Part shown: piece after piece, positions 2,242 to 31,846 of the stretch
Layout: each line of letters starts with the position of its first letter
Numbering within the stretch: position 1 is the stretch's first letter
NCBI GenBank assembly: GCA_014729145.1
Contig: WJKL01000016.1
Coordinates: forward strand, 225 to 64,224
Source: Candidatus Woesearchaeota archaeon
Lineage (GTDB): Archaea; Nanobdellota; Nanobdellia; Woesearchaeales; WJKL01
Reading direction: 5' to 3'
DNA length: 64,000 bases
The notes under the pieces: model-generated
Seen by the model: only the letters and a program-made list of their open reading frames with translations
Databases searched by the model: none
Told to the model about the DNA's origin: nothing
Program-made: the position numbers and the translations under genes

Positions 2242-2305
2242 AATTTTTATTTAAAATTAATTTTAATGTTTAGTGTCACTGGACATAATGTGAAGGAGTC
2301 CAGAT

Positions 2306-2330
2306 AACCACTGGTCACTGGACATTTACC
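2306..2330 (+). promoter_or_regulatory. 25-bp conserved element AACCACTGGTCACTGGACATTTACC, located -59..-35 relative to the mcm start and just upstream of a TATA-like box. An upstream half-copy GTCACTGGACAT lies at 2274-2286.
   Basis: Near-identical copy (24 of 25 nt) at 30909-30933 at the same position relative to another gene start. Contains internal CACTGG direct repeat and GTCCAG/CTGGAC inverted repeat. Confidence 0.45.
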
Positions 2331-2364
2331 TGCGTAAGGCATTTAAGGGGGGATTGTCTTATGT

Positions 2365-5300
2365 ATGAATATGGAAGCAGCTGAAACTATAAATAAATTC
2401 AAAGAATTTTTTGAAAAAGAATATGAAGCTAAATTAAAAGATAGTGTTAGAAAAGGAAAACATTATCTTGTTATTGATTTTTCTGAACTTCTTAATTTTG
2501 ACCATGAGCTTTCTGATGGTCTTTTGGACAACCCAGAAGATTCTGTTGCTGCTGCTGAAGAGGCTGTAAAGGATTGTATTGATGGTAATATTAAAAAATT
2601 CAACATAAGATTCTTAAATCTTCCTGAAAACCAAAAGGTATTGGTAAGGAACATAAGAAGCAAACATATCGGAAGGCTTTTGGTGATGGATGGTGTGGTC
2701 AGGCAGAAAAGTGATGTAAGGCCGCAAGTAACTTCTGCAAAGTTTGAATGCCCTTCCTGCGGAAATATAATCAATGTTCTTCAGCTGGACAAAACATTCA
2801 AGGAACCAAATAAATGCGGGTGCGGAAGGAAAGGAAAATTTAGATTATTGAAGAAAGAACTGGTGGATGCTCAGGGGCTGGTTTTAGAAGAAGATCCTGA
2901 AAATCTTGAAGGAGGAGAGCAGCCAAAAAGGATGAATGTGCTGCTGCAGGACGATCTTGTAAGTCCTTTAAGCGAAAGGAAGACAAACCCTGGAAGCAAG
3001 ATAAAAATAATTGGAACAATAAAGGAAGTGCCAATATTTTCAAGAACTGGGAGCCAAACAACGAGATTTGACCTTCTTATAGAAGCAAATAATTTTGAAA
3101 CAATAGAGGAGAATTTCTATGAAGTTGAAATTACTAAAGAAGAGCATGAAGAGATCAAAAAGCTTTCAAAAGATCCTAAGATATACAAGAAACTTGTACA
3201 GTCAATAGCTCCATCTATATACGGCTATAAAAAAGTAAAAGAAGCATTGATACTGCAGCTTATGGGCGGGGTGCATAAGCAAAGACATGATGGGGTTGTA
3301 ACAAGAGGAGATATGCATATTCTTTTGATTGGGGATCCGGGAAGCGGAAAATCTCAGCTATTGAAAAGGGTAAATCTTATTGCGCCAAAAGGAAGATATG
3401 TATCTGGAAAGGGTGTTTCGGGTGCAGGACTTACTGCATCTGTTGTCAAGGATGAATTTTTAAAGGGATGGAGTTTAGAAGCAGGGGCTTTGGTATTGGC
3501 GAATAATGGAATGTGCTGTTTACATCCTGATACATCTATTGTCATTAATAATAAAATACAAAAAATATCAAAAATATTTGACTGCCATAAAAAAGAATTA
3601 GGAAAATGCAAAAATGAGATTGTTGAATTTAATGATATTGAAAAAGATGTAGTAAGTTTTGATATAAAAAGAATGGATTGTGAAAAACAAGTTTCGACAG
3701 TTATTAGGAGAAAGAAATTTGATGGCCATTTATTAAATGTCAAATTCAAATCAGGATTCTCTATAAAACTTACTCCTGACCACAAGATAATCGATGGAAA
3801 TCATTTAGGGTGGAAGGAAGCTCAAGAATTCAAAAAAGGGGAAAAAACATTGGCGCCCTTAAATTTGCCAAGCATTAAAGAAGATACTTTTATATTTGAC
3901 ATCTTACCTAAAAATTGGAAAGTTTTTTTGAACAAAAAAGAAAAAAACCAATTGAAGCAAAATATAAGAAGAAAATTTAAAACATTGAGCGCTTTCAATA
4001 AAAAATTTAACTTGGATAAGAATTTTCTTTCTGGAAGAAAACAAATAACTATTAAGAAATTTGAAAAAATCTTAGAATTTTTAGGAGAAAAAAATAAATG
4101 GAGAAAAATCCCTTTAAAATTTGGAAGGAATAAAAATGGAGAAAAATTGAAAATAGCCAAAATCACTCCAGAATTAGGCTATATATTAGGATTCATATTG
4201 GGAGATGGATATATAAATATGAATAAAAGAAGAACGACAATAAATATAACTCAATCTATCAAGAACAAGGAGAATATTAAAAGAATAAAAGAATATTGGA
4301 ATAAAATTTCATTGAAAAAATTAAAAGAAACTGAAGATAATAGAACCTCTAAGATTAGGGACCAAAAGGTAATATCAAAATGTAAAGTTCTTTATTCTGG
4401 GAGCAACCTTCTTGGTGGTTTATATAAACATTATACTTCGAATGCACTTGCCGAAATATTATCCCTGCCTGATGATGTGTTAAAAGGATTTATTGGTGGG
4501 ATTATGGATTCTGATGGCTGCATAAGTACAAGAAAGTACATAAAGAATGGAAATAAATATTTTACGCAGATTATTGAATTTTTATTTAGTAATGAAAGAA
4601 AAGAAAATCTTAATTTTATGCTTGCGCTTAGGAGATTTGATTGTTATGGTAAAATAAACGAGAGAGAAAATATAAAATCAGTCACAATTAGTAGTAGAAA
4701 AGATATATCTAATTTGATTAAAGAATTAGACTCTTTTTCTATTAAAATTAGTAAATCTAGATTATTAGTTAAGAATAAGCAAATTTCAGGAGACAGTGAT
4801 AAAATACCCTCCATCATTGGAAAAAAGATATGTGATAGGATAATAAAATTAAACAAATCCTTTTTGCTTAAGAAAGGTATATGGAGTACAGTTTATGGTT
4901 TTAAACATGGTGGAAGGGAACCTTCAAGAAATCAGATAATTAAAATCATCAATAAAACACAAGATATGATAAATGATAAAAAGTTTGTTGAGGGATCATT
5001 AGGATTGATAAAAAGAGACTATTTTCTAGATGAGATTGTTGATATAAAAAAAGAAAAATATTCAGGATATGTCTATGACTTATTTGTTCCGAAAAACCAT
5101 AACTTTCTTGCAGATGGAATAATTGTACATAATTGTATTGATGAGATGGACAAGATGAGCCAGGAAGACAGGAGTGCAATGCACGAGGCGCTTGAGCAGC
5201 AAAGCTTCCATTATGATACTTGGATTAGTTTAGCAGATGGTTCTGAAAAAAAGATTGGAAACTTCGTAGAAAAATTAATGAAAAAAAACCATAAAAAAAT

Positions 5301-7413
5301 TATAAAAGGAAAAGATTGTTATATACTTCCTACAGAAGACAAAGATGTAGAAATCTTCACTACTGATTGGAATAATATTTACAAAACAAAAATCAACAGA
5401 GTGAGCAAACACATTGCTCCAGATTATTTTATTAAAATAAAATTAAAAAATGGGAGAGAGATTACAGTAACTCCAGAACATCCTGTTTTCTATATAGATG
5501 AGTGTAAGATCAAAACCGTTGATGCTGAAAATGTAAAAGAAGATATGTGGATGCCTGTGCCTTTAGAAACAAATATAGAAGGAGAAAGTCAAAAATTTGA
5601 GATAACAAAAGAAGAATGCTACATAAATAGGGCTTCTCGACATATTGCTGTTCCGATGGAGAATGGAGAAAATTTCTTCAAGATTATAGGTTATATGCTA
5701 GCAGAAGGTTCTAAAGAACTTAATAGAGGAAAATTAATTGGTATTAATTTTACTAATAAAGATGAAAGATTATTAGAAGATTTTGAAAATTCCATGGAAG
5801 AATTATTTGGGCTTAGACCCTATAAACAACCCAGAATTGATGGTTATGATTTAAGATACATGTATAGGTATATTTCGAGAGAATTAAGTGTCTTTATTGA
5901 GAGAACATGTCCTGAGATATTAAATAAATCTAGTGAAAAAGAAATTCCTAAAATTTGTTTAAAAGGGAAAAAAGAAGATGTTGCTTTAATGCTTTCATGC
6001 ATGTTTGAAGGAGATGGTCATGTATCAAAAAAACTTAGAACTATTAGGGTAGGATTTGGATCTAATAGTAAGAAAATGTGCGAACAGGTTCAAGATTTGT
6101 TATTAAGATTTGGAATAAGAAGTAATTTGACTGAACACAAAAAAAGCTATAAAGTTTCGATTACTAGAAGAGAAAACTTGCTAAAATTTTATGAAAAAAT
6201 TGGATTTATTACTAAAGAAAAAAACAATATTATAAAAAAATATTTAGACAATGTAAAATTAAAAAGAAGTATCAAGAATAATATTCCTAATGTTTCTAAA
6301 AAAGTTATAAAATTGATGAAAAAATATGGTGTTAAATGTGTAGGAAATAATTGTTTGGCTACAATGAAATATGACTATCTTAAAAGAAGAAGAAATATAT
6401 CTAAACAAGCACTACAAGAGATTGTAAAAAAGATTTCTCCAAAACCTGAAGATAAGAAAGCCCATAATTTTCTTAAAAAAATGGCTTTTGGAAATATTGG
6501 ATTTGAAAAAATAAAATCTATTGAAAGAATAGAAAATAAGGATCAAAAATGGACTTATGATGTTACCATAGAGCCAACCCATAATTTTATTTCTCAAAAT
6601 ATGGTTTTACATAACACAATCAGCATAAGCAAGGCAAATATCCAGGCCACTCTTGTAGCTAGGACAACTGTGCTGGCTGCAGCAAACCCAAAGTTTGGAA
6701 GATTTGACCCTTATGATATCTTAGCGAAACAGATAGATCTTCCACCTGCGCTGATCAACAGGTTTGACCTTATATTTCCTATAAAAGATATGCCTGATAA
6801 AGAAAAAGACAAAAAAATGGCGCATCATATATTAGACCTTCATCAAAATCCTGATGTAGATGATCCTGAAATTGAAACAGAGCTTCTTAAGAAATATTTT
6901 GCCTATGCAAGACAGAATGTAAATCCAAAGCTTACCAGCGGTGCATTGGAGGAGATCAAAAATTATTATGTTGAGATGAGAAACAAAGAAGTGGGGGAAG
7001 AAGGCTCTGCAAGAGCAATACCAATATCACCAAGACAGCTTGAGGCTTTGATAAGATTGTCTGAGGCGTCTGCGAGGACAAGATTAAGCCCAAAAGTTAC
7101 AAAGAAAGACGCAAAAAAGGCAATAAGTCTGCTCCACCACTGCTTAAGTGAGATAGGTGTTGATCCAGAGACAGGAAAGATTGATATTGACAGAATTACT
7201 ACAGGTATAACAGCATCACAAAGAAACAAGATAGTGGTAATCAAGGAGATCATAAATGAGCTTGAGAATAAGATCGGAAAAACTATCCCTCTTGATGATC
7301 TGATAAAAGAGGCTGAAGACAAAGGAATAGAAGATATAGATGATGCTATTGAAAAGCTGAAAAGAAGCGGAGATATTTTTGAGCCCAAGAGAGGATTTAT
7401 ACAAAAGATCTAA
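2365..7413 (+). CDS. mcm: MCM replicative helicase interrupted by two inteins (1682 aa precursor; about 672 aa mature)
   Basis: N-terminal MCM domain with zinc finger (CPSCGN...CGCG), Walker A GDPGSGKSQ, Walker B CIDEMDKM split by insert 1, EQQ/TISISKA split by insert 2, arginine finger region LAAANP, C-terminal winged helix. Confidence 0.9.
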   Translation: MNMEAAETINKFKEFFEKEYEAKLKDSVRKGKHYLVIDFSELLNFDHELSDGLLDNPEDSVAAAEEAVKDCIDGNIKKFNIRFLNLPENQKVLVRNIRSKHIGRLLVMDGVVRQKSDVRPQVTSAKFECPSCGNIINVLQLDKTFKEPNKCGCGRKGKFRLLKKELVDAQGLVLEEDPENLEGGEQPKRMNVLLQDDLVSPLSERKTNPGSKIKIIGTIKEVPIFSRTGSQTTRFDLLIEANNFETIEENFYEVEITKEEHEEIKKLSKDPKIYKKLVQSIAPSIYGYKKVKEALILQLMGGVHKQRHDGVVTRGDMHILLIGDPGSGKSQLLKRVNLIAPKGRYVSGKGVSGAGLTASVVKDEFLKGWSLEAGALVLANNGMCCLHPDTSIVINNKIQKISKIFDCHKKELGKCKNEIVEFNDIEKDVVSFDIKRMDCEKQVSTVIRRKKFDGHLLNVKFKSGFSIKLTPDHKIIDGNHLGWKEAQEFKKGEKTLAPLNLPSIKEDTFIFDILPKNWKVFLNKKEKNQLKQNIRRKFKTLSAFNKKFNLDKNFLSGRKQITIKKFEKILEFLGEKNKWRKIPLKFGRNKNGEKLKIAKITPELGYILGFILGDGYINMNKRRTTINITQSIKNKENIKRIKEYWNKISLKKLKETEDNRTSKIRDQKVISKCKVLYSGSNLLGGLYKHYTSNALAEILSLPDDVLKGFIGGIMDSDGCISTRKYIKNGNKYFTQIIEFLFSNERKENLNFMLALRRFDCYGKINERENIKSVTISSRKDISNLIKELDSFSIKISKSRLLVKNKQISGDSDKIPSIIGKKICDRIIKLNKSFLLKKGIWSTVYGFKHGGREPSRNQIIKIINKTQDMINDKKFVEGSLGLIKRDYFLDEIVDIKKEKYSGYVYDLFVPKNHNFLADGIIVHNCIDEMDKMSQEDRSAMHEALEQQSFHYDTWISLADGSEKKIGNFVEKLMKKNHKKIIKGKDCYILPTEDKDVEIFTTDWNNIYKTKINRVSKHIAPDYFIKIKLKNGREITVTPEHPVFYIDECKIKTVDAENVKEDMWMPVPLETNIEGESQKFEITKEECYINRASRHIAVPMENGENFFKIIGYMLAEGSKELNRGKLIGINFTNKDERLLEDFENSMEELFGLRPYKQPRIDGYDLRYMYRYISRELSVFIERTCPEILNKSSEKEIPKICLKGKKEDVALMLSCMFEGDGHVSKKLRTIRVGFGSNSKKMCEQVQDLLLRFGIRSNLTEHKKSYKVSITRRENLLKFYEKIGFITKEKNNIIKKYLDNVKLKRSIKNNIPNVSKKVIKLMKKYGVKCVGNNCLATMKYDYLKRRRNISKQALQEIVKKISPKPEDKKAHNFLKKMAFGNIGFEKIKSIERIENKDQKWTYDVTIEPTHNFISQNMVLHNTISISKANIQATLVARTTVLAAANPKFGRFDPYDILAKQIDLPPALINRFDLIFPIKDMPDKEKDKKMAHHILDLHQNPDVDDPEIETELLKKYFAYARQNVNPKLTSGALEEIKNYYVEMRNKEVGEEGSARAIPISPRQLEALIRLSEASARTRLSPKVTKKDAKKAISLLHHCLSEIGVDPETGKIDIDRITTGITASQRNKIVVIKEIINELENKIGKTIPLDDLIKEAEDKGIEDIDDAIEKLKRSGDIFEPKRGFIQKI
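3517..5133 (+). mobile_element. Intein 1 in MCM (539 aa) with LAGLIDADG homing endonuclease domain. Inserted between NNGMC and CIDEMDKM (Walker B).
   Basis: Starts with Cys (CLHPDT), ends with His-Asn (IVHN), followed by a Cys +1 extein residue. LAGLIDADG-type motifs LGYILGFILGDGYI and KGFIGGIMDSDGCIS. The host motif is restored when the insert is removed. Confidence 0.75.
5203..6615 (+). mobile_element. Intein 2 in MCM (471 aa) with LAGLIDADG homing endonuclease domain. Inserted between EQQ and TISISKA.
   Basis: Starts with Ser (SFHYDT), ends with His-Asn (VLHN), followed by a Thr +1 residue. LAGLIDADG-type blocks IIGYMLAEGS and LSCMFEGDGHVS. Removal restores the canonical MCM motif EQQTISI. 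Confidence 0.7.
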
Positions 7414-9971: not shown

Positions 9972-12900
9972 CTAACCAAACCACTTTCCAAGACCTTCCT
10001 GCCTTTCTTTTTCTTTTCCAAAAACACTTTCAATCCTTCTTTGGAGTATTGTAAGTGTCTGCTTCAGATAATCAGGGATATTATATTTGTTTGCAAGAGA
10101 TATGCTTGGCTGGAGGTATTTTACTACAGAGCCTTCTGAGATGGTGAAGATTATCCTGCCTCCGCATTCAGTGCATTTTCCTATCAAAGGGGGCCGCCTG
10201 TATTTTGTATTGCATTTTACACAACGAAACTGCTGCATTGAAAATTTCCTGAGATTTCCTTTGATGTCTCTTAGGAAATGTTTTTCTATGACCAATCTTG
10301 CGACATCAGAGGTATCTACAGCTCTTAGTTTTTCTGCTATGTTCATCTGCCCCTTTAACTTATCCTCCATAGAAGGCAAAGTCTTGTATGCAGAACATCT
10401 TACCCCTTTATTTATGTTTGAGGTGTCATGTGTAAAACCAAGACCTTCATATTGCTTTGGTGTGTTAAGGTGGTCTCCAAGTTTTGATATTTCAATGTCC
10501 CATGGATCCTTATATGCAATGCATGCATTATAGAACTCAAGAGTGTATCTCCAGGCGATATCCATGTCAAATATCATATCATCTATTTCAGAAGGGATGA
10601 GTCTTGAGGTCATTACAAGGGGTGCGTCTTGGGTTGCTCCTCTGTGTGCAGGAAGGTACTGCCTGGAAAAATTGATTACTGCATCCATCAGAAGGTTTAC
10701 TGATGCTTCATCTCCGTCGCAGTCTCTTCTTGTAGCAGCATGGAGCATGGGATGAGCAAAAAAACCTTGGGTATTTGAAAAACCGATGATTCTCCCCACT
10801 ATTGCTGCAGAAGTGTGTGGCGCTAAAGCAAGAACAAGATGGCCGATAAGGTCTTGTTCAGATTTTAAATTATAGTAAGCTGGTAAGCTGTAAAGATTTT
10901 TAAGAAGGTCATCGCAGAATTTTGAAACCCTGAACAATACTTCATCTGCTCCCTGATCTGGAGATTCCTGACATGCAGGAAGAACTATGTCCTGTGGCTT
11001 TAATTCTAGAATCTGGTCTTTTTCCCTAAGGGGTTTTCCATGAATGTCTTTTATATATCCAAGCTCGTTAAGCTTTTCTACAGAAGTTCCTATCTCTTTT
11101 GGCTTGAAATGGGTCAGAGGAAGCTGAGTCATATCATACCTTGTTGTTCCGTCTTTGTTTACGTGTATATCATTTTTTGCCCTTAATATCCCTTTTATCA
11201 GGTGTTCAGGCACATGGTCTTTGTTTGATGTCCCTCTTACTCCTTTGATCAAATCAGGGTATGCTTTAATCTTTAATTTTTTAAGCATCTGCTTGAAATA
11301 ATACTTTATGTCAATATCCTGCAGCCTGTGATGTGGTATTTCTCCATGTTTTTTGCATTTCTCTTTTTCTTTTGATCCACAGATCTTGCAGAAATATCTT
11401 TTTTCTGTTCTTTTACCACAGGTTTCGCATACACTAAAGATGGTTTCTTTACTGCATCTTTTGCAGAAGAATAGGGGGAAATTGGACCTTATCTTTCCCT
11501 CTTCAAGTGCAGCCTGGAAAGAACGCAGTCTTCCCCCTTCATTTCCAACAGGGAACAGAACATGAGGTGATCCGGTAAGTTTTCTCATCTTGGCCTTTTC
11601 AGGACGCCCCATCCTTGCGCCTATGAATACTCCTGACTTGTCCCTAATCTTAACTGAGGATATATCTTTGATAATATCTAGGGGGTTCTTGTCTATTGAA
11701 GTAATATTAGAAATATTTAACTGGGCGATAAAAGCCGGGGCGTGATCTTTTTTGATTACTATAAACTCTTTATTGACAACAATATGGGGCAGACCTATCA
11801 GTTCCAATGCCCTTTTAGTATGCTCTTCTATCGGGATTATTATTTTCTTGGTGGTATTATTTTCTTTTTTTATCTCTGATTTTTTAATTGATCTTACAAG
11901 TTCAGAAAACTGCTCCTTGTTTATAAGCTTCCAGTGGTATGTATATCTTGGATGAAGAGGGATGTTCAACTTTAGAGAAAGTTTAAGGGCGTGCTGTGGA
12001 GAAATTATGGTATTTAGTGGGTTCTTAGTCAGCTTATTGAGTATATCTTCAGGTATTTCAGTAAACTCTGAAAGCTTGTAGGTGTCAAGATTTCCAAAAT
12101 TATCAACCGTGGCTTTTTCCAGCTCCTGTATCCACCATTCCTCACAATAACCAGGAGGTATCAAAGAATGAGCACGATTGAGGAAATCCCCATAGTTTAT
12201 GAGCATATCTCCCATGAAAAGGATCTCTTCAATATTATCTGAATATTCTTTTAGTTCTGATTCATTCTCTATCTTCACAACTGAACCGTCTTTGAGTTTT
12301 ATTATAGGACCTTCAAGCGTGTCGCAGACTGTGACGGTACAGCCTTTTCCAGGCCTCTCTATCTTCAGCTGGGTTCCAGTGCCAATATAATCATTTAAGG
12401 CTGCCATGGTAGCTGGGTGGATAGATGTAGCAGAATACCCTGATGTCCTTGACCTTCCAAATCTTAACCTAAATCCGCCAGGAGCAAGCGGGTGCGTCAA
12501 AACAGGCCTTCCTGCAACAAGGTCTTTTATGAATGTATGGTCCGGCTTTACTTCATTGGTTTCTTTTTCCTCTTTTTTATCTGGTGTCTGTTTTGATTTT
12601 ATCTTTTTTTGTAGTCTTACGAATTCTTCAAGAAAATCCCACTGCTCCATACTGAATTCGTGACCCCATTTTGAAAGCTGTTTCCATAATTTAGGGGCTT
12701 TTTGGGCAATTCCCTCTCCCATAGTAAGGCAGACCCCATTTCTGATCCTGTTTGTCTCTACTCTTTCAAGGTCCTTATAATTGGAAACCTCTATCTTTTC
12801 GGAAGGGTCTCCAGCTATCTGAACAGGTATGTGTTTAGCTAAAAATTCTATCTCTTCTGGAGAGGGAAGATATTGAAGATTGGTAATCTTTTCATGATAA

Positions 12901-13496
12901 TCATAAAGTTCAGTGACATACCTTTTAGTCTCCTTTTCGTTTGGATCATAAGGGTGATATCCCATCTTTTTTCTTACATAATCTGCAATCAAAACAGAAA
13001 CTGAAGCTCCGGTGCCCCCTGCACTCCTGATTGGTCCAGAAAAATATAGTTTAAAGTATTCTTTTCCTTCTTTTGTCTTTTCTATAGATAACTTGCTGAA
13101 ACCTTCAAGAGGGGATGCGACCGAACCTAAAGTATGGTATGCGAATCCTACCCTTATTCCCACCTCCATTGCTTCTTTTTTGTCTTCGAACTTGCAGAAT
13201 TTCTGATTTGCGATCTCTTCAGCGATTATGAGTGATATTCTCCAGTCCAGAACACTGTATTTTTTTTCGAGGTCCTGTATCCTTTTTGATACTCCTGAAT
13301 CTATAATCTGAGGTGCAACTGCAGAGATAAGCCCGGTTACACGCTCAGCCATATTCCTGGCAACAGGTATATCTATCTTTTCTTCTGGATCATATCCCTT
13401 CTTTCTTGCTTTGGAAGCCAGAGAAAGCCCTTTTTTCAGTTTTTCATCTATCTTTTTGAAGTAATCTTCCATCTCTTTTGAAGTTTGTGGGCTCAT
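9972..13496 (-). CDS. dp2: DNA polymerase II (PolD) large subunit DP2
   Basis: 1174 aa. Conserved DP2 blocks including Cys clusters (CKRCSKETIFSVCETCGKRTE...CKICG) and C-terminal zinc finger (CVKCNTKYRRPPLIGKCTECGG). Start overlaps the DP1 stop (ATGA). No intein. Confidence 0.9.
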   Translation of the reverse strand: MSPQTSKEMEDYFKKIDEKLKKGLSLASKARKKGYDPEEKIDIPVARNMAERVTGLISAVAPQIIDSGVSKRIQDLEKKYSVLDWRISLIIAEEIANQKFCKFEDKKEAMEVGIRVGFAYHTLGSVASPLEGFSKLSIEKTKEGKEYFKLYFSGPIRSAGGTGASVSVLIADYVRKKMGYHPYDPNEKETKRYVTELYDYHEKITNLQYLPSPEEIEFLAKHIPVQIAGDPSEKIEVSNYKDLERVETNRIRNGVCLTMGEGIAQKAPKLWKQLSKWGHEFSMEQWDFLEEFVRLQKKIKSKQTPDKKEEKETNEVKPDHTFIKDLVAGRPVLTHPLAPGGFRLRFGRSRTSGYSATSIHPATMAALNDYIGTGTQLKIERPGKGCTVTVCDTLEGPIIKLKDGSVVKIENESELKEYSDNIEEILFMGDMLINYGDFLNRAHSLIPPGYCEEWWIQELEKATVDNFGNLDTYKLSEFTEIPEDILNKLTKNPLNTIISPQHALKLSLKLNIPLHPRYTYHWKLINKEQFSELVRSIKKSEIKKENNTTKKIIIPIEEHTKRALELIGLPHIVVNKEFIVIKKDHAPAFIAQLNISNITSIDKNPLDIIKDISSVKIRDKSGVFIGARMGRPEKAKMRKLTGSPHVLFPVGNEGGRLRSFQAALEEGKIRSNFPLFFCKRCSKETIFSVCETCGKRTEKRYFCKICGSKEKEKCKKHGEIPHHRLQDIDIKYYFKQMLKKLKIKAYPDLIKGVRGTSNKDHVPEHLIKGILRAKNDIHVNKDGTTRYDMTQLPLTHFKPKEIGTSVEKLNELGYIKDIHGKPLREKDQILELKPQDIVLPACQESPDQGADEVLFRVSKFCDDLLKNLYSLPAYYNLKSEQDLIGHLVLALAPHTSAAIVGRIIGFSNTQGFFAHPMLHAATRRDCDGDEASVNLLMDAVINFSRQYLPAHRGATQDAPLVMTSRLIPSEIDDMIFDMDIAWRYTLEFYNACIAYKDPWDIEISKLGDHLNTPKQYEGLGFTHDTSNINKGVRCSAYKTLPSMEDKLKGQMNIAEKLRAVDTSDVARLVIEKHFLRDIKGNLRKFSMQQFRCVKCNTKYRRPPLIGKCTECGGRIIFTISEGSVVKYLQPSISLANKYNIPDYLKQTLTILQRRIESVFGKEKERQEGLGKWFG

Positions 13497-15076
13497 TTTC
13501 CGAATTTAAGTAGTTTAAATTTTCTTGTCTGAAGATTTAATATTGGAACACGTGCGGGCTCAGGATTATGGCCAACTTTTTCCTGGAAAGGTGTCTTGGA
13601 CTGCCAGCATGAACCGCAGACAAGAGTTATATTTCTGTAATTTTTTATCGTAGATTTATGAATATGGCCTGTAATAAATATATCAGGAAGGGTTTCAATT
13701 ACCAAGGGGTCTTTTGATGTGTTTGGGATATAAAGGGTGGATGTATGGCTTGGAGCAAGGTGTCTTTTTTGGAGTAAAAACTGCATGATAAGGTCAGCAC
13801 GATTGTATCCTCCTTTGTTCCTGATTGAATCGATATTGGCTACAAAATAATCAAAGGAATATCCATGATATAACAATACATCAAAACCAGGAAAATCCCC
13901 TGAAGAGTGAATATTGACTGTTGATGGATTGCTGACCATAGTGACGTTAGGAAGCTCCCAGATTGAGCCTGCAAAATCTTTGTAAAGTGTGGGCTGAGGC
14001 TCTGCAATGCGCATAGCATCGTGATTTCCAGGAGATATTATTAGATTTATATGCTGAGGGATTTTTTTCAGAAGACTGGCACATTCTTCATATTGTTTTT
14101 TTATGTCTTTGATGACAAGTTCATCTTCCTGTCCAGGGTATATTCCATGGCCATCCACTAGATCTCCCACAATAAATACATATTTTGTCTTTTCCGCAAT
14201 ATTTTTCTGCTCTTGATTTCCAGTATTGCCATTGATCCAGTCTAAAAACTGGTTGAATTCCTTGCCTAAAAAATGGTCTGAACCTACATGGACGTCTGAC
14301 AAAAATACAGCATAGGCTTCTTCTGGTGCTTTTCTCAGCTCCTTGCTTAAAGGGACTTCCGGCCAGATGATATTGTTGGCAAAAACAATATTATCCCCAT
14401 TTACACCTACAACCCCAATGACCTCATCAAGAACGATGTCCTGTGCTGGATTAAAAAGCTCTGGCTTGTTGTTGTTTACATATACCTTGATGCATCCAGT
14501 AGGGTCCTCTAAAGTAAGCATAAGCCCTCCTTTGGATGTAGTTTTTTTGTCTTTCACTATCCCTATTATCGACACATTGTCTTTGTCTTGTTTGCTATTG
14601 AGTCTTGTTATTGAGGTTAAATTCCTTAAATCAGGCCTGCTTCTTAGTATTTTTTCAAGCGCCTTGTACCTCACATTAAAATAAGAAACAAAGTCCTGGA
14701 TGTCTCTTTTCTTGCTTTCTTCCTCATATGAATTTATTATCTTTATATTTTGGGACTCGGGTTTGTTATCTACATCTTCAGAGTGCAGAAAATCTACAAA
14801 CTTAAAATAAACCTCTTTATTTTTTCCTTTTTCAAAGGACACCCTTGCATTATCAAAATCAACCCAATTCATGTCAAGAGGTGCATCCTGGTCCACCATC
14901 TTTTTTACATCAGAAGTTAACATAAGAAAGTTTCTTGATTTGAGTTTCTTGAAAAGTAAAGAATAAAAATCTGAAGGCTCAAAATCATCTGTAAGCGAAT
15001 CTAGAAATCCCTGTGATAGGAATATTTCTTTCTTTAAAAAATAATTTACAATCTTCTTTTGTTTTTCAATTTCCAT
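13493..15076 (-). CDS. dp1: DNA polymerase II (PolD) small subunit DP1 (calcineurin-like phosphoesterase, 3'-5' exonuclease)
   Basis: 527 aa. Metallophosphoesterase motifs (VFLSDVHVGS, GDLVDG, GNHD, GHIH). N-terminal OB region. Confidence 0.85.
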   Translation of the reverse strand: MEIEKQKKIVNYFLKKEIFLSQGFLDSLTDDFEPSDFYSLLFKKLKSRNFLMLTSDVKKMVDQDAPLDMNWVDFDNARVSFEKGKNKEVYFKFVDFLHSEDVDNKPESQNIKIINSYEEESKKRDIQDFVSYFNVRYKALEKILRSRPDLRNLTSITRLNSKQDKDNVSIIGIVKDKKTTSKGGLMLTLEDPTGCIKVYVNNNKPELFNPAQDIVLDEVIGVVGVNGDNIVFANNIIWPEVPLSKELRKAPEEAYAVFLSDVHVGSDHFLGKEFNQFLDWINGNTGNQEQKNIAEKTKYVFIVGDLVDGHGIYPGQEDELVIKDIKKQYEECASLLKKIPQHINLIISPGNHDAMRIAEPQPTLYKDFAGSIWELPNVTMVSNPSTVNIHSSGDFPGFDVLLYHGYSFDYFVANIDSIRNKGGYNRADLIMQFLLQKRHLAPSHTSTLYIPNTSKDPLVIETLPDIFITGHIHKSTIKNYRNITLVCGSCWQSKTPFQEKVGHNPEPARVPILNLQTRKFKLLKFGK

Positions 15077-15109: not shown

Positions 15110-16321
15110 TTAAGATATATCTAATCCTTCCTCTAAAATATTTTTTATGGTCTGTTCGGATGACTCTGATATAGATAAAGTTATATCTCTTGTTCTTCCA
15201 TATCTTCCCTTTGATATTACCTTTGCATTTATTATCCCTAACATATCCAACTCTGCGATAACATCTGAGACCCTTCTTTGGGTTAGGGGCCTTATGTTAG
15301 TTTTGGAGCATATCTTTTTGTAAACTTCATATACCTCTCCTGTGAATATCTGTTTTTCTTTTTTAGAGCAAATAGAAAGGATAGAGTAAAGGATAGCCTG
15401 GTGTTGTTTTGGTTGGGTTCTTATTATATCTAAAATTCTGTCTTTTTCTATCTTTTCTTCTGCAAAATCAATATCATCTAATTCTATCTTTTCTTTGTTT
15501 TTTCTTTCTGCCAGTTCGCCTGCGACCCGCAAGAGCTCCAGGGCCCTTCTTGCATCCCCATGTTCTCTGGCTGCATAAGCGGCACATTTTTCTATCACTC
15601 CTGATTTCATTGATTTTTTTTGGAATGCTTTTTTTGCCCTCTGTCTTAAGATATCCTGTATCTGGATTGCATTATATGGGGGGAAGATTATCTCTTCTTC
15701 TGATAATGAAGATTTTACCCTTGGATCTAAATTATCTCTGAACATTAGGTCATTGGATACCCCAATTATTGATATTTGAGATTTTTGAAGCTCTGAATTT
15801 ATTCTTGTTAGGTTATATAATACTTCATCCCCTGTTTTACTTACAAGCTGGTCGATCTCATCCAAAATCAATAAAATCAAAGAATTTTCTTTTTCTATCA
15901 AATTGAATACTATCTTATATACTTCTTCTGTTGGTAGGCCTGTTGATGGGATCTCCTGTCCAAGTTCTCTAGAAATCTGAGCAACTAATCTATATTCAGT
16001 GTCTGCGATTTTTTTTAACTTACAGTTTAGATATATTGTTTTGAGAGGTATTTTTCTTTTGGTTGCTACATTTATCAGTTTGTTGGATGTAAATTTTATC
16101 GAAAGGGTCTTTCCTGTTCCTGTTTTTCCATAAATGAAAAGATTAGAAGGTTTGTCTAACTTTAAGGCTGGTGCTAAGATATCTGCTATTTCTTGTATCT
16201 GCTTATCTCTATGGGGTGTTGTTTCTGGTGTAAAGTTTGATTGAAGTGCTTTTTTGTTTGTGAATATTGATTTTTTATCTAAGAATTCTTCGAAAAATAC
16301 ATCTATATTTTTTTGATCCAT
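15110..16321 (-). CDS. orc1: Orc1/Cdc6 replication initiator
   Basis: 403 aa AAA+ protein with Walker A GKTGTGKT and Walker B LILDEID. C-terminal winged-helix domain. Starts 15 bp from ORB1. Confidence 0.9.
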   Translation of the reverse strand: MDQKNIDVFFEEFLDKKSIFTNKKALQSNFTPETTPHRDKQIQEIADILAPALKLDKPSNLFIYGKTGTGKTLSIKFTSNKLINVATKRKIPLKTIYLNCKLKKIADTEYRLVAQISRELGQEIPSTGLPTEEVYKIVFNLIEKENSLILLILDEIDQLVSKTGDEVLYNLTRINSELQKSQISIIGVSNDLMFRDNLDPRVKSSLSEEEIIFPPYNAIQIQDILRQRAKKAFQKKSMKSGVIEKCAAYAAREHGDARRALELLRVAGELAERKNKEKIELDDIDFAEEKIEKDRILDIIRTQPKQHQAILYSILSICSKKEKQIFTGEVYEVYKKICSKTNIRPLTQRRVSDVIAELDMLGIINAKVISKGRYGRTRDITLSISESSEQTIKNILEEGLDIS

Positions 16322-16335
16322 CTAAACACCCTCTA

Positions 16336-16354
16336 TTTCCAAATGAAATGGAAG
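16336..16354 (+). promoter_or_regulatory. ORB1: TTTCCAAATGAAATGGAAG (dyad TTCCA...TGGAA)
   Basis: Matches the archaeal ORB/mini-ORB core. 15 bp upstream of the orc1 start codon. Confidence 0.5.
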
Positions 16355-16375
16355 TATAAATAATTTTTTGTTTGT

Positions 16376-16403
16376 GCCCCTGACTCCTTCATTTCATTTG
16401 GAG
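16376..16403 (-). promoter_or_regulatory. ORB2 (read on minus strand): CTCCAAATGAAATGAAGGAGTCAGGGGC with downstream G-string
   Basis: Full-length ORB architecture (dyad core plus GAAATGAAGG plus GGGG). Confidence 0.55.
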
Positions 16404-16626
16404 TTTTATATTGTTGTTTTGGATGGTTTAAATTTATTTCAGTAGTTTAATATATATAATATAATAATTATTTTTTAATTTATATTTTTTATTATAATAT
16501 TTAGAGGCTTTCTTTTTATTTTTTTCTATATTGAAAATAAATATAATATAATAAATAATAATATAATAATAAAAATAATAAATAAAAAATAAAAAAGAAA
16601 ACAACAAACAAAACAAAAAAACGACA

Positions 16627-16653
16627 TTTCCACACGAAATGAAGGAGTAGGAG
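16627..16653 (+). promoter_or_regulatory. ORB3: TTTCCACACGAAATGAAGGAGTAGGAG. Inverted relative to ORB2 across the AT-rich stretch.
   Basis: Same consensus. A degenerate fourth copy (CATTTCATTT core) lies at about 16672-16693. Confidence 0.55.
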
Positions 16654-16834
16654 AATGAAAAAATCAAGAGATTGGAATACATTTCATTTAAAGTTATCAC
16701 TATATAATAATAAAAACCATTACCTTTATAAACAATATTCTCTTAATTATCCATATATCCAAAAAGAAATTGATAGGTATAAGTATATTATAATATAAAA
16801 TTAACATTAAAATAAGGATAGTGAGGGAAAAACA

Positions 16835-17653
16835 ATGATAGTTAAGAAAGATTTTTTAAACAAACTAAAAGATTTCGGATTAAATACATACGAAAGCAAA
16901 TTATGGACTGCTTTGTTGTCAAGAGGTGTTTCAACTGCAGGTGAATTAAGTGATATTGCAGGAGTTCCAAGAAGCAGAAGTTATGATGTTCTCGAAAGTC
17001 TTGAGAAAAAAGGCTTTATTATTATGAAGGTAGGAAAACCAATAAAATATGTGGCTGTTCCTCCGACTGATGTTTTAGAAAGAGTAAAAAAACAGATAGA
17101 AAATGAAGCAAACAAACAGATAGGCGTTATCGATTCTATTGAAGAAAGTGACGTATTAAATAAGCTTCAGTCCTTACACCAAGAAGGCGTTGATATGATA
17201 GACCCTACTGATTTAAGTGGGTGTGTAAAAGGGAGGAATAACCTTTACAATCATCTTGGATCAATGATTAATGACGCAAAAGAATCTGTTTCTATAATGA
17301 CTACAATGGATGGCCTCAAAAGAAAATTAGATAATCTAAAAAACGTTCTTGAGAAAGCAAAGAAAAAAGGTGTTAATGTAAGGATCGCTGCCCCTTTGAA
17401 AAAAGCAGATAAAAAAATAATAGATGAACTATCTAAATATGCAGAAATAAAACACAGTGATGTCAATTCAAGATTTTGTGTTATAGATGGAAAACAAGTG
17501 GCATTTATGTTATTAGATGACAAAGACGTACACCCAACTTATGATGCAGCCATCTGGGCAAATACGAAGTTGTTTGCTTCAACCCTTGAAAATTTCTTTA
17601 ACCAATGCTGGGGCAATATGAAACCAGCTGACAAGTTTGTAAAGGCATCTTAA
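16835..17653 (+). CDS. TrmB-family transcriptional regulator (paralog 1)
   Basis: N-terminal wHTH (LWTALLSRGVSTAGELSDIAGVPRSRSYDVLESLEKKGF) plus C-terminal TrmB effector-type domain. More than 60% identical to the ORF at 45256 over the N-terminal 90 aa. Confidence 0.8.
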   Translation: MIVKKDFLNKLKDFGLNTYESKLWTALLSRGVSTAGELSDIAGVPRSRSYDVLESLEKKGFIIMKVGKPIKYVAVPPTDVLERVKKQIENEANKQIGVIDSIEESDVLNKLQSLHQEGVDMIDPTDLSGCVKGRNNLYNHLGSMINDAKESVSIMTTMDGLKRKLDNLKNVLEKAKKKGVNVRIAAPLKKADKKIIDELSKYAEIKHSDVNSRFCVIDGKQVAFMLLDDKDVHPTYDAAIWANTKLFASTLENFFNQCWGNMKPADKFVKAS

Positions 17654-30832: not shown

Positions 30833-30908
30833 TAAAGTATTTATTTAGGTAAATAGTATAAAAAGGTTTCTTTAAGATTGACGATTGATCCATTGTAAGT
30901 ATTATCTG

Positions 30909-30933
30909 AACCACTGGTCACTGGACATTCACC
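30909..30933 (+). promoter_or_regulatory. Second copy of the 25-bp element AACCACTGGTCACTGGACATTCACC, at -62..-38 relative to the Cas4-like gene start and upstream of a TATATAAA box
   Basis: 24 of 25 nt identical to 2306-2330. Same orientation and distance to the downstream + strand start codon. Lies in the divergent spacer with tyrS. Confidence 0.45.
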
Positions 30934-30970
30934 CATAAGCTATATAAATGAAATCTTTTAGTTATTTAAT

Positions 30971-31846
30971 ATGGCTAGAAAGAGACGAATATCTGTGACA
31001 ATGCTGAGTTCTTATCTTTATTGTGCAAGAAAGCTGTTTTTAGAGAGGGTTTTAGGGCTTTTTGAGCCTGAGAAGGCAGCTTTGGTAAAGGGCAGCATAA
31101 GACACGAGACATATGACGGGGCAAATCAAGTTGAAGAAAAGATTGTTACCAGCATCAAAGAAGGGGAAGGATTTGAGGATATCTATAACAAATATGCAAA
31201 AATATATTCAACTTTGCTTAGACAATCAATAACTAAGAATAAATATAGATTAAGAAAGATAAAACTTCCATTGATAGATGCATATCATGAGATATGGCCT
31301 TTTTTTAAAAGAGAAAGTGAGATAAGAGCTTTAAACATATACAAATTTATTGTAAAATCTAATTTATACGGGCTTGAATTATGGGATAAGTTGATTCCGA
31401 AGGTAGAGTCTGAAAAGAAGATAGCATCTGATGAGCTGGAATTGAAAGGCATTGTAGACAAGATAGAGATTTATCCTGAAGGCTATGTACCTGTAGAATT
31501 AAAGACAGGGAGTATGCCTAAAGAAGGTGTTTGGCCAGGACATAGGGTGCAGATAGGGGCTTATGCTTTGATGATGGAGGAAAAATACGGGAAAGAGATA
31601 AAAGAGGCATTTGTTCATTATCTTGATTCTGATGAGAGAAGGCAGGTAGTGGTCAATCCTTTTTTAAAAGAAGAGGTAAAAGAACTAAAGGACAAGGTCA
31701 GGAAGTTATTAGAAGGAAGCAAGATCCCAGAAAGAGCAGACAACCAAAATAAATGCCGTAAATGCGGACTGAAAAATAAGTGCTTTGATGAGAATTTTCT
31801 CAAAGGATTATTAGATAGAAGAGCAAAAGAAAAACAAAAAAATTAG
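30971..31846 (+). CDS. Cas4-like (DUF83) PD-(D/E)xK exonuclease with 4Fe-4S cluster; no CRISPR array in the window
   Basis: 291 aa. N-terminal Cys (SSYLYCARK), RecB-type motifs (IVDKIEIY...VELKTG, QIGAYAL), C-terminal CRKCGLKNKC completing a C...CxxCx5C cluster. Confidence 0.6.
   Translation: MARKRRISVTMLSSYLYCARKLFLERVLGLFEPEKAALVKGSIRHETYDGANQVEEKIVTSIKEGEGFEDIYNKYAKIYSTLLRQSITKNKYRLRKIKLPLIDAYHEIWPFFKRESEIRALNIYKFIVKSNLYGLELWDKLIPKVESEKKIASDELELKGIVDKIEIYPEGYVPVELKTGSMPKEGVWPGHRVQIGAYALMMEEKYGKEIKEAFVHYLDSDERRQVVVNPFLKEEVKELKDKVRKLLEGSKIPERADNQNKCRKCGLKNKCFDENFLKGLLDRRAKEKQKN

What the first reader, a model, noticed from the sequence alone, without database searches (positions are those of the whole stretch)
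2274..2330. 25-bp element shared by the mcm and Cas4-like nuclease promoters at the same position (-60 to -35), suggesting a common regulator
AACCACTGGTCACTGGACATT(T/C)ACC occurs at 2306-2330 and at 30909-30933, with 24 of 25 nt identical. Each copy lies immediately upstream of a TATA-like box and at the same distance from a + strand start codon (mcm and the Cas4-like exonuclease). The element contains a CACTGG direct repeat, and the mcm copy is preceded by a half-copy GTCACTGGACAT (2274-2286) with a GTCCAG/CTGGAC inverted repeat. Its reverse complement contains TCCAGTG, which resembles the ORB dyad core, so an Orc1-type or other wH regulator is conceivable. Co-regulation of the replicative helicase with a RecB-family nuclease would define a small replication/repair regulon.
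Basis: seen in the sequence. Interest (0 to 1): 0.55.

Follow-up and report, generated by a model that had tools for sequence, protein, structure and literature searches.

The report
Conserved promoter site for DNA-repair genes
The shared 25-bp element is real: it is a regulator-binding site, conserved across uncultured Woesearchaeota archaea, that sits just upstream of the TATA box of recombination, repair and replication genes and so marks an undescribed archaeal DNA-maintenance regulon whose regulator is still unknown.

Summary
AACCACTGGTCACTGGACATT(T/C)ACC occurs only at 2306-2330 and 30909-30933 (0 expected by chance), upstream of mcm and of a stand-alone Cas4-like nuclease. A third unit lies at 2275-2286.

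The window is from a Woesearchaeota (DPANN) genome. The invariant 18-mer CCACTGGTCACTGGACAT occurs 61 times here and in about 32 related genomes. Every copy lies 11-16 nt (mostly 12 or 14) upstream of a TATA-like box, so it is not a dispersed repeat.

Downstream genes are mostly DNA-transaction genes. They include a small-protein-radA operon, Hef, an ERCC4 nuclease, Cas4-like nuclease, MCM, about 15 free-standing LAGLIDADG endonucleases, integrases, Bro-N proteins and restriction enzymes.

Orthologues found by protein similarity alone keep the site:
- Cas4-like: 3 of 3.
- radA operon: 4 of 4.
- mcm: 2 of 5.

The minimal unit is CACTGGACA(T/A). Phased auxiliary units lie 30-70 bp upstream.

Best reading: this is the binding site of an unidentified transcription factor. 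From its position upstream of BRE/TATA it is probably an activator of a recombination and fork-repair regulon.

The ORB/Orc1 idea is not supported by this genome's own origin boxes. However, a second Orc1/Cdc6 paralogue next to one regulon promoter remains a lead. I found no published description.

The parts
2308..2325 (+). Proximal regulator site of the mcm promoter. It is the 18-mer CCACTGGTCACTGGACAT, made of two overlapping units, CACTGGTCA and CACTGGACA(T). It spans -63..-46 relative to the ATG at 2371.
   Evidence: Searches give the sequence and position. The same 18-mer is exact in 61 copies, each upstream of a TATA-like box. It is conserved in mcm orthologues L030 and L047, and as a single unit in L075 and L077.
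2275..2286 (+). Auxiliary upstream unit GTCACTGGACAT (core CACTGGACA at 2277-2285), 39 bp upstream of the proximal unit.
   Evidence: locate it. Auxiliary units are recurrent: 15 of 61 promoters carry another CACTGGWC within 130 nt upstream, against a 0.9% background and 0 of 61 in the downstream control. The same arrangement occurs in L030, L061 and L072.
2298..2303 (+). GTCCAG, a partial inverted unit inside the segment AGTCCAGATAA that separates tandem copies. Its role is unknown.
   Evidence: One search shows the sequence. The segment 'gagtccagataa' is repeated between copies in L030, L061 and L072, so it belongs to a duplicated promoter module in this sub-lineage.
2326..2339 (+). G+C-rich 14-nt spacer TTACCTGCGTAAGG; the GCGTAAGG part is in the BRE position.
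   Evidence: spacers of 12 or 14 nt with a consensus of roughly GCGTRAG in nearly all copies. Ordinary promoters of the window have A-rich sequence at this position.
2340..2348 (+). TATA-like box CATTTAAGG of mcm, followed by a G-run.
   Evidence: identical in L030 and L047. The ATG at 2371 lies about 30 nt downstream, as in other leaderless genes of the window.
2371..7413 (+). mcm gene (replicative helicase with two inteins). The likely true start is 2371; the mechanical ORF starts at 2365.
   Evidence: MCM_N, MCM_OB, MCM, MCM_lid and MCM_WH_arc domains plus Intein_splicing and LAGLIDADG_3; orthologues start MEAAETI; L047 has no intein and L030 has one.
30911..30928 (+). Proximal regulator site of the Cas4-like nuclease promoter. 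It is the same 18-mer, spanning -60..-43 relative to the ATG at 30971.
   Evidence: Searches give the sequence and position. It is retained in orthologous promoters L061, L072 (three copies), L057 and L004. It is a single unit in L074 and diverged in L073.
30929..30940 (+). 12-nt spacer TCACCCATAAGC, BRE-like at its 3' end.
30941..30948 (+). TATA box TATATAAA of the Cas4-like gene.
   Evidence: The ATG lies exactly 30 nt downstream of the start of the box, which indicates a leaderless mRNA.
30971..31846 (+). Stand-alone Cas4-like PD-(D/E)XK nuclease gene with no CRISPR context in the window. It is divergent from a class I Tyr/Trp-type tRNA synthetase gene (Pfam tRNA-synt_1b).
   Evidence: Cas_Cas4, PDDEXK_1; TIGR00372 cas4; 610 homologues, named Ca. 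Woesearchaeota. Synteny is conserved in L072-L074.

Best explanation
The element is the promoter-proximal binding site of a sequence-specific transcription factor, not yet identified, that is conserved in Woesearchaeota (DPANN archaea).

Anatomy. The recognition unit is CACTGGACA(T/A). In this genome two units overlap with a 7-bp offset (CACTGGTCA / CACTGGACA). The downstream unit ends 12-14 bp before the TATA box, which is 5-7 bp upstream of the BRE position, so the site covers about -43 to -63 relative to the start of leaderless mRNAs. Further units lie 30-70 bp upstream, in either orientation, and probably allow cooperative binding. The mcm promoter has one at 2275-2286.

Inferred mechanism. 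Because the site lies upstream of BRE/TATA rather than over or downstream of it, the factor most likely helps recruit TFB/TBP, that is, it activates. It thereby co-regulates a recombination and fork-repair gene set: the radA operon, Hef, an ERCC4 nuclease, the Cas4-like nuclease, and in some lineages MCM. Selfish and defence genes appear to have joined the same signal (LAGLIDADG endonucleases, integrases, Bro-N proteins, restriction enzymes).

What is shown and what is inferred. Shown: the fixed promoter position, the conservation and the gene set. Inferred: protein binding, the sign of regulation and the inducing signal (DNA damage or S phase).
For: (1) The 25-mer pair is non-random.

(2) The 18-mer gave 63 stretches in 185,579 species genomes. 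Of these, 56 are in Woesearchaeota/Nanoarchaeota-type MAGs, 6 are bacterial hits with no archaeal promoter context, and one (L040) lies in a bacterial chromosome but carries the full archaeal promoter module. About 17 chance hits are expected for the whole collection.

(3) All 61 exact archaeal copies are followed by a TATA-like box at 11-16 nt (26 at 12 nt, 20 at 14 nt). In 23 promoters the ATG lies 41-45 nt after the element, consistent with leaderless mRNAs.

(4) The downstream genes are non-homologous but functionally coherent:
- MCM x3
- Cas4-like x4
- Hef x3
- ERCC4 nuclease
- RadA directly (L054)
- the 95-aa protein that heads the radA operon: 8 with the protein recognised, plus 2 (L034, L044) counted only from their shared leader sequence
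- LAGLIDADG about 15
- integrase x2
- Bro-N x3
- NgoPII and Mrr

(5) Orthologues found without reference to the motif keep the site at the same place. This holds for Cas4-like in 3/3 (L072, L073, L074), for the radA operon in 4/4 (L066, L067, L070, L071) and for mcm in 2/5 (L075, L077). Only the motif, spacer and TATA align; the flanks do not.

(6) In 194 kb of such loci, all 13 exact CACTGGACA copies lie in these promoter regions. Eight of the 13 have a canonical TATA at the right distance, against a 5% background.

(7) Auxiliary units are strongly enriched and phased: 15/61 against a 0.9% background, clustering at -59..-67 and -29..-41.

(8) Other promoters in the window lack the element, including ribosomal-protein, orc1, polD, RFC and Fen1.

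(9) Position rule: archaeal factors bound upstream of BRE/TATA activate, and those bound downstream repress (TrmBL1, PMC4706686).
Against: No binding protein has been identified, and no expression data exist for these uncultured organisms.

The core promoters already have near-consensus TATA boxes and plausible BREs. That would suit a repressor (SOS-type logic) as well as an activator.

A 7-bp offset between two units is unusual for a classical dimeric helix-turn-helix factor.

Membership of mcm is not universal. The site is decayed or absent in L064, L076 and L078.

Most of the gene catalogue comes from exact-match hits. Weaker sites, and therefore the full regulon, are unknown.
Confidence: 0.8

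Rival explanations
1. The site is the same kind of protein-binding site but acts as an operator for a repressor (SOS/LexA-like logic). The factor sits next to the BRE, oligomerises with the upstream auxiliary units, occludes or distorts the TFB/TBP site, and is released on DNA damage.
For: The core promoters look intrinsically strong (TATATAAA or TATTTAAA plus a BRE-like GTAAG), so they may not need an activator. Phased auxiliary sites are typical of looping repressors. The gene set resembles bacterial SOS regulons: a recombinase, nucleases, and mobile or defence genes.
Against: Archaeal repressors characterised so far mostly overlap or follow BRE/TATA, and sites upstream of BRE were activating in vitro (PMC4706686). 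Here the site never overlaps TATA; the spacer is 11-16 nt in 61/61 copies.
Confidence: 0.35
2. The regulator is an Orc1/Cdc6-type protein. It could be the initiator binding an ORB-like box, or a non-initiator paralogue acting like Sulfolobales Orc1-2.
For: The reverse complement contains TCCAGTG / CCAGTGG, the centre of canonical ORB dyads (sequence; own knowledge). Orc1-2 of Saccharolobus is a proven DNA-damage regulator that binds promoter motifs (PMC6061795). Relatives encode a second Orc1/Cdc6 paralogue of 357 aa that is 29% identical to the window's Orc1 and 80% conserved between genomes. It lies directly upstream of a motif-bearing promoter in three genomes (L052, L028, L015).
Against: The origin beside orc1 in this window carries ORB-like inverted repeats of a different sequence (ATTTCCAAATGAAATG, ATTTCCACACGAAATG), and the element is absent there. 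The GAAA half of the ORB dyad is missing from the element. The paralogue's own promoter lacks the motif, and adjacency is the only link. Pfam does not detect a Cdc6_C winged helix in the paralogue.
Confidence: 0.15
3. The element is the recognition or homing site of the LAGLIDADG proteins that so often lie downstream of it. These could be a domesticated WhiA-like regulator or an active homing endonuclease whose promoter cassette spreads.
For: About 15 of 61 exact copies drive free-standing LAGLIDADG_3 genes. LAGLIDADG proteins recognise long sites of roughly 20 bp (own knowledge), which would fit an invariant 18-mer.
Against: These proteins are only 12-33% identical to one another, whereas the 18-mer is invariant, and both catalytic acidic residues are kept. 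This pattern fits diverse endonucleases acting as cargo rather than one conserved regulator. Several paralogues occur per genome. The site is conserved at orthologous cellular promoters (radA operon, Cas4-like gene) in genomes where only a single 9-10 bp unit remains. No LAGLIDADG gene lies near either copy in the window apart from the mcm inteins.
Confidence: 0.05
4. The element is not a regulatory site. It could be a recently duplicated promoter fragment, a dispersed repeat or miniature mobile element, or a generic upstream element of strong promoters.
For: The two copies in one genome are 24/25 identical. In close relatives the unit is tandemly duplicated, for example a 56-bp repeat present three times in L072.
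Against: Similarity between the two window copies ends at the element. The same sequence precedes unrelated genes in about 32 genomes, always 11-16 nt before a TATA box and always in one orientation. No copies were found in viral contigs. Ribosomal-protein and other strong promoters lack it. No copies were found inside genes in 194 kb of independent loci.
Confidence: 0.03

Closest known systems
DNA-damage-responsive element (5'-ANTTTC-3') bound by the Orc1/Cdc6 paralogue Orc1-2 in Sulfolobales (PMC6061795; PMC5817253)
   Same: Both are short promoter motifs shared by a set of archaeal genes for DNA transactions. Each defines a lineage-wide regulon and acts at the level of transcription initiation. 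In Sulfolobales the factor activates.
   Different: The sequences are unrelated. The Sulfolobales motif lies at -23 to -55 from the ATG, whereas this site lies upstream of BRE/TATA at about -43 to -63. The gene sets differ: ups, ced and tfb3 there, against radA, hef, the Cas4-like gene and mcm here. The regulator here is unknown.
Upstream activating sites of archaeal transcription factors (TrmBL1 at TGM sites upstream of BRE/TATA, PMC4706686; EarA at the fla promoter, PMC5512572; Ptr2 and TFB-RF1, own knowledge)
   Same: The site lies immediately upstream of BRE/TATA. There can be more than one site per promoter. The presumed action is recruitment of TBP/TFB.
   Different: The sequence is different, the clade is different (DPANN), and the gene set concerns DNA maintenance rather than metabolism or motility. 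No factor or activity has been demonstrated.
Bacterial SOS boxes / LexA regulon (own knowledge; example of motif variation in PMC4951493)
   Same: The logic and membership are similar: the recombinase gene is the core member, joined by nucleases or helicases and by mobile and defence genes that join the signal.
   Different: SOS boxes are palindromes overlapping the promoter and are bound by a self-cleaving repressor. This site is non-palindromic, lies upstream of the core promoter, and belongs to a TBP/TFB-type promoter. LexA is not known in archaea.
Archaeal origin recognition boxes (ORB / mini-ORB) bound by Orc1/Cdc6
   Same: They share a CCAGTGG/TCCAGTG-like core with canonical ORB dyads.
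   Different: This genome's own ORB-like boxes at the orc1-adjacent origin (16335-16350, 16390-16405, 16626-16641, 16680-16695) read ATTTCCAAATGAAATG or ATTTCCACACGAAATG. The element lacks the GAAA half, is not at an origin, and is tied to TATA boxes.
Eukaryotic G1/S regulons (E2F sites; MBF/MCB boxes) (own knowledge)
   Same: MCM is co-regulated with Rad51-type recombinase and fork-repair factors through one short promoter motif.
   Different: The sequences and factors are unrelated. Cell-cycle control is not shown here, and other replication genes (orc1, polD, RFC, Fen1) are outside this regulon.

Membership tests
Transcription-factor binding site upstream of an archaeal core promoter (UAS/operator) | Fixed position and orientation relative to BRE/TATA | tested here: met
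   All 61 exact copies lie 11-16 nt upstream of a TATA-like box on the same strand as the downstream gene. Background frequency of such a TATA is 5%.
Transcription-factor binding site upstream of an archaeal core promoter (UAS/operator) | Conserved at orthologous promoters while the flanks diverge (phylogenetic footprint) | tested here: met
   Cas4-like 3/3, radA operon 4/4 and mcm 2/5 orthologues found by protein similarity alone keep the site. Alignments show that only the motif, spacer and TATA are conserved.
Transcription-factor binding site upstream of an archaeal core promoter (UAS/operator) | Shared by non-homologous, functionally related genes (a regulon) | tested here: met
   The genes are the radA operon, Hef, ERCC4 nuclease, Cas4-like nuclease, MCM, LAGLIDADG, integrases, Bro-N and restriction enzymes.
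Transcription-factor binding site upstream of an archaeal core promoter (UAS/operator) | A specific protein binds it and changes transcription | not testable with these tools
   This needs EMSA or footprinting and in vitro transcription, or metatranscriptomics. The candidates are only leads.
Archaeal ORB / mini-ORB (Orc1/Cdc6 site) | Matches the ORB boxes of the same genome's origin | tested here: not met
   The boxes at 16335-16350, 16390-16405, 16626-16641 and 16680-16695 read ATTTCCAAATGAAATG, CATTTCATTTGGAGTT and similar. No copy of the element with up to 5 mismatches lies in the orc1-adjacent origin region 16322-16834.
Archaeal ORB / mini-ORB (Orc1/Cdc6 site) | Located at a replication origin, with inverted boxes flanking an A+T-rich unwinding element | tested here: not met
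   Both copies sit in short intergenic promoters (2242-2370 and 30833-30970) with no A+T-rich unwinding element flanked by inverted boxes.
Sulfolobales DDRE / Orc1-2 regulon | ANTTTC hexanucleotide at -23 to -55 from the ATG | tested here: not met
   The element contains no ANTTTC and lies further upstream (PMC6061795).
Sulfolobales DDRE / Orc1-2 regulon | A non-initiator Orc1/Cdc6 paralogue is the regulator | tested here: inconclusive
   A second Orc1/Cdc6 paralogue exists in relatives, next to a motif-bearing promoter in 3 genomes. There is no evidence of binding, and no such gene in this 64-kb window.
Bacterial-type SOS box (LexA operator) | Palindromic operator overlapping the promoter; LexA repressor | tested here: not met
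   The unit is not a palindrome and lies upstream of TATA/BRE. LexA was not searched for.
Dispersed repeat / miniature mobile element | Copies in non-promoter locations, longer conserved unit, terminal repeats | tested here: not met
   Conservation is limited to about 40 nt (motif, spacer and TATA). No copies lie inside genes in 194 kb of loci, and none in viral contigs.
Core promoter element (BRE/TATA itself) | Present at most promoters of the genome, directly adjacent to TATA | tested here: not met
   Only 2 of about 48 promoters inspected in the window carry it, and it is separated from TATA by 12-14 nt that include a BRE-like segment.

The most novel reading that the evidence does not exclude
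Woesearchaeota, and perhaps wider Nanoarchaeia, possess an SOS-like or G1/S-like transcriptional programme for homologous recombination and fork repair. It would be driven through CACTGGACA units by a regulator of a new type. Candidates are a non-initiator Orc1/Cdc6 paralogue (extending the Orc1-2 paradigm from Sulfolobales to DPANN) and the novel 95-aa beta4-alpha protein co-transcribed with radA behind a conserved structured leader. In this reading, free-standing LAGLIDADG endonucleases, integrases and restriction or defence genes have captured the same signal.
Probability: 0.3. Interest if true: 0.8.

Novelty: new member of a known kind. Interest (0 to 1): 0.62.

Why it matters
Whether archaea outside Sulfolobales and the haloarchaea have a coordinated DNA-damage or replication-stress response is an open question. 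For DPANN archaea, which are uncultured, have reduced genomes and are probably host-dependent, almost nothing is known about gene regulation.

This element gives a concrete, clade-wide cis-signature. It predicts a regulon: the radA operon, Hef, an ERCC4 nuclease, a stand-alone Cas4-like nuclease and MCM. It also assigns a recombination-related context to three things: stand-alone Cas4 nucleases, an uncharacterised 95-aa protein family and a large family of free-standing LAGLIDADG proteins. Finally, it provides probes with which a regulator can be sought in vitro without culturing the organism. It can also serve as a marker for annotating promoters and leaderless starts in Woesearchaeota MAGs.

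Tried and rejected
(1) The metagenome scan for mcm relatives chose low-complexity peptide patterns and returned only 2 loci, so the orthologue survey used exact-protein look-ups instead.

(2) The 18-mer has no hit in viral contigs, so the idea of a virus or plasmid promoter was dropped.

(3) Rfam found nothing in the long leaders downstream of some copies. RNAalifold on the leaders recovered only a 3-bp hairpin because the variable part aligns poorly.

(4) The 95-aa protein could not be assigned to a family:
- No Pfam or NCBIfam hit.
- No PDB sequence match.
- Foldseek hits were weak (Pur-alpha, SSB).
- hhalign found no similarity to PC4.
- The afdb50 library was unavailable.
Its fold therefore remains unassigned.

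(5) LAGLIDADG as the regulator was rejected, because those proteins are too diverse for an invariant site.

(6) Initiator Orc1 binding an ORB-like box was rejected after comparison with the window's own origin.

(7) Looser scans of the window (18-mer with up to 6 mismatches; 10-mer with up to 2 mismatches plus TATA) found no further credible sites.

(8) Literature searches for the sequence and for DPANN or Woesearchaeota promoter regulons found no description.

Full report
**Observation.** The window holds exactly two copies of AACCACTGGTCACTGGACATTYACC, at 2306-2330 and 30909-30933 on the + strand. They are the only matches even with 3 mismatches allowed, and none appeared in 100 shuffles. 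A 12-nt unit, GTCACTGGACAT, recurs at 2275-2286, 39 bp upstream of the same 12-mer inside the mcm copy.

Pfam confirms the neighbouring genes:
- TBP at 1666-2241.
- An intein-containing MCM at 2365-7413.
- A Cas4/PD-(D/E)XK nuclease at 30971-31846.
- A divergent class I tRNA synthetase (Pfam tRNA-synt_1b, the Trp/Tyr type) at 29807-30832.

Each copy is followed by a G+C-rich spacer and a TATA-like box. For mcm the spacer is TTACCTGCGTAAGG and the box is CATTTAAGG. For the Cas4-like gene the spacer is TCACCCATAAGC and the box is TATATAAA. The start codon lies about 30 nt after the start of the box (30971 for the Cas4-like gene; 2371 for mcm, as supported by orthologues). Most genes in this window show the same geometry, so these are leaderless mRNAs, and the 'same distance to the ATG' follows from a fixed distance to TATA.

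**Source organism.** The Cas4-like protein is identical to one that NCBI names Candidatus Woesearchaeota. The window also carries an orc1/cdc6-polD operon next to a typical origin.

**How widespread the element is.** A scan of one genome per species (185,579 species) for the 18-mer CCACTGGTCACTGGACAT returned 63 stretches. About 17 hits are expected by chance for the whole collection.
- Six stretches are bacterial hits with no archaeal promoter context.
- One lies in a low-GC island of a bacterial chromosome but carries the full archaeal promoter module.
- The remaining 56 are in about 32 Woesearchaeota/Nanoarchaeota-type MAGs, with up to 11 copies per genome.

Including the window, there are 61 exact archaeal copies. 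Every one is followed by a TATA-like box at 11-16 nt (26 at 12 nt, 20 at 14 nt, 7 at 13 nt), on the strand of the downstream gene. In 23 promoters the ATG lies 41-45 nt after the 18-mer. No viral contig holds the 18-mer.

**What the element drives.** The downstream genes are unrelated in sequence but coherent in function:
- MCM: window, L030, L047.
- Cas4-like nuclease: window, L004, L057, L061.
- Hef helicase-nuclease: L029, L046, L055.
- An ERCC4 nuclease: L045.
- RadA directly: L054.
- A conserved protein of about 95 aa: 8 loci with the protein recognised (L001, L013, L017, L023, L031, L032, L038, L048... with L062), plus 2 (L034, L044) counted only from their shared leader sequence.
- About 15 free-standing double-motif LAGLIDADG proteins.
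- Two tyrosine recombinases.
- Three Bro-N proteins.
- NgoPII and Mrr restriction enzymes.
- A Schlafen/AlbA_2 protein.
- A nucleotidyltransferase.
- Several small unknown proteins.

The 95-aa family has 313 homologues, all annotated as hypothetical. In four of four loci retrieved by protein identity alone it lies immediately upstream of radA. radA is therefore the most constant member of the set. By contrast, orc1, polD, RFC, Fen1, RPA, RadB and ribosomal-protein promoters in the window and in the retrieved loci lack the site.

**Independent test of conservation.** I retrieved orthologues through protein searches, not through the motif.
- Cas4-like promoters. L072 (79% identity) has three exact 18-mers in a 56-bp tandem repeat. 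L073 (68%) has a diverged version, CACTGATCACTGATCAG, at the same place. L074 (61%) has a single CCACTGGACAT 13 nt before the TATA box.
- radA-operon promoters. L066 has CCACTGGTCACTGGACAC, L067 has CCACTACCCACTGGACAA, L070 has CCACTCCCGCACTGGACAA and L071 has a single CCCACTGGACAA. In each case the element lies 12 nt before the TATA box.
- mcm promoters. L075 (72%) and L077 (63%) keep a single CACTGGACAT. L064 (60%) has a decayed GCACAAGACAT. L076 (66%) has nothing. In L078 (59%) mcm follows TBP without its own promoter.

In total these loci cover 194 kb and contain 13 exact CACTGGACA copies, where about 1.5 are expected. All 13 lie in these promoter regions, and 8 have a canonical TATA box at the right distance against a 5% background.

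Two conclusions follow. The 25-mer of this genome is two overlapping units with a 7-bp offset.

**Auxiliary units.** Fifteen of the 61 promoters carry another CACTGGWC within 130 nt upstream, against a 0.9% background and none in a downstream control. These units cluster at -59..-67 and at -29..-41 relative to the 18-mer, and they occur in direct or inverted orientation. The unit at 2275-2286 is one of them. Phased auxiliary sites that work in either orientation are typical of cooperative protein binding.

**Mechanism.** The following are shown:
- a fixed, oriented position about 5-7 bp upstream of the BRE position;
- conservation at orthologous promoters while the flanks diverge;
- a coherent gene set;
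- phased auxiliary sites.

It is inferred that a sequence-specific factor binds the site. Because archaeal factors bound upstream of BRE/TATA activated transcription in vitro while those bound downstream repressed it (PMC4706686), activation by TFB/TBP recruitment is the more likely mode. Repression cannot be excluded, because the core promoters look strong.

The gene set combines a recombinase, fork-repair nucleases and helicases, the replicative helicase, and selfish or defence genes. This resembles a DNA-damage or replication-stress programme. The inducing signal is unknown.

**Who binds?** Four candidates were considered.

- The initiator Orc1. The origin next to orc1 (16322-16834) has an A+T-rich centre flanked by inverted ORB-like boxes (ATTTCCAAATGAAATG, ATTTCCACACGAAATG and their complements). 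These differ from the element, and the element is absent there. Binding of the initiator Orc1 to an ORB-like box is therefore not supported.

- A second Orc1/Cdc6 paralogue. Three relatives encode a paralogue of 357 aa that is 29% identical to the window's Orc1 and 80% conserved between genomes. It lies directly upstream of a motif-bearing promoter that drives a small Zn-ribbon protein, followed by Sua5 and a phosphoesterase. Given the Orc1-2 precedent in Sulfolobales (PMC6061795), this is a lead. Adjacency is the only evidence for it.

- The LAGLIDADG proteins. They are too diverse (12-33% identity to one another, catalytic residues retained) to all read one invariant 18-mer. They are better seen as cargo.

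**Novelty.** No paper in the searchable library contains the 13-mer core, and none describes a promoter motif or regulon in Woesearchaeota or DPANN. The kind of feature is familiar: a factor site upstream of an archaeal core promoter that defines a regulon. This motif, its clade and its gene set are, as far as I can tell, undescribed. I therefore file it as a new member of a known kind.

**Verdict.** The ORB analogy fails the direct test. The regulator and the sign of regulation remain open.

Noticed in passing
window 16322-16834 (next to orc1 at 15110-16321 on the - strand, then polD small subunit 13493-15076 and large subunit 9972-13496): Typical archaeal replication origin. An A+T-rich stretch (about 16440-16600) is flanked by inverted ORB-like boxes: ATTTCCAAATGAAATG (16335), CATTTCATTTGGAGTT (16390), ATTTCCACACGAAATG (16626) and CATTTCATTTAAAGTT (16680). 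A TrmB-family gene (16835-17653) lies on the other side, and this synteny is conserved in L077 and L078.
   Followed up: partly
[not shown]
   Followed up: partly
L066 2860-3000, L062 180-320, L071 9840-10000, L001, L013, L017 (leaders of the 95-aa gene): The 95-aa-radA operon has a structured 5' leader of 90-190 nt. Its tail is invariant: GTTGAAAYAARATGCG(A)AAGCAA..GGAGGT, ending 7-9 nt before the ATG. It also has a stem CATCCCC...GGGGATG and hairpins with a CCAAAG loop. There is no Rfam match. It may be a new cis-regulatory RNA.
   Followed up: partly
L052 1361-2434, L028 4527-5597 (- strand), L015 2520-3593: A second, shorter Orc1/Cdc6 paralogue (357 aa, no detectable Cdc6_C winged helix) is conserved at 80% identity between genomes. 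It is always followed by the motif-bearing promoter, a Zn-ribbon mini-protein of 47-66 aa, Sua5/YrdC and a metallophosphoesterase.
   Followed up: partly
L006, L008, L010, L012, L014, L019, L026, L037, L041, L042, L043, L049, L058, L059: A large, diverse family of free-standing double-motif LAGLIDADG proteins (about 200-400 aa, both catalytic Asp residues retained, conserved C-terminal ...W...IGF.NP.H..K). There are several per genome, and all sit behind the same regulatory element.
   Followed up: partly
window 2365-7413; L030 4217-7843 (- strand); L047 2352-4361 (- strand): The number of MCM inteins varies among close relatives: two in the window (1682 aa), one in L030 (1209 aa) and none in L047 (670 aa). 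TBP-mcm gene order is conserved across Woesearchaeota (L064, L075-L078). The mcm TATA-like box is followed by a conserved G6 run.
   Followed up: no
L040 (OY776512.1, 'Desulfarculaceae bacterium' chromosome), motif at 2247-2264 on the - strand: The complete archaeal promoter module (18-mer, GTTCGCATAAGG, TATATAAA) lies in a low-GC island (33-45% against 55%) of a 6.5-Mb bacterial chromosome assembly. This could be an assembly chimera, contamination or transferred DNA.
   Followed up: partly
L001, L005, L006, L010, L018, L020, L024, L026, L030, L045, L048, L052, L056, L061, L062: MAG records titled 'uncultured Methanosarcinales archaeon' carry loci whose proteins are 88-95% identical to the window's MCM and Cas4-like proteins; NCBI names the window's Cas4-like protein Ca. 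Woesearchaeota. The organism label of these records is probably wrong.
   Followed up: no
L078 9019-9340: A one-mismatch copy (CCATTGGTCACTGGACAT followed by TTTATAAG) drives a hairpin-rich stretch of about 300 nt with no ORF, upstream of the TBP-mcm pair. It may be a non-coding RNA.
   Followed up: no
L039 5049-5147 and L053 (- strand, 44 nt after the motif): A conserved 32-aa basic peptide (MKK.K..K.GQKHLIEKSSKR...) is encoded as a leaderless ORF directly behind the element in two genomes. In L053 it precedes a tyrosine recombinase.
   Followed up: no
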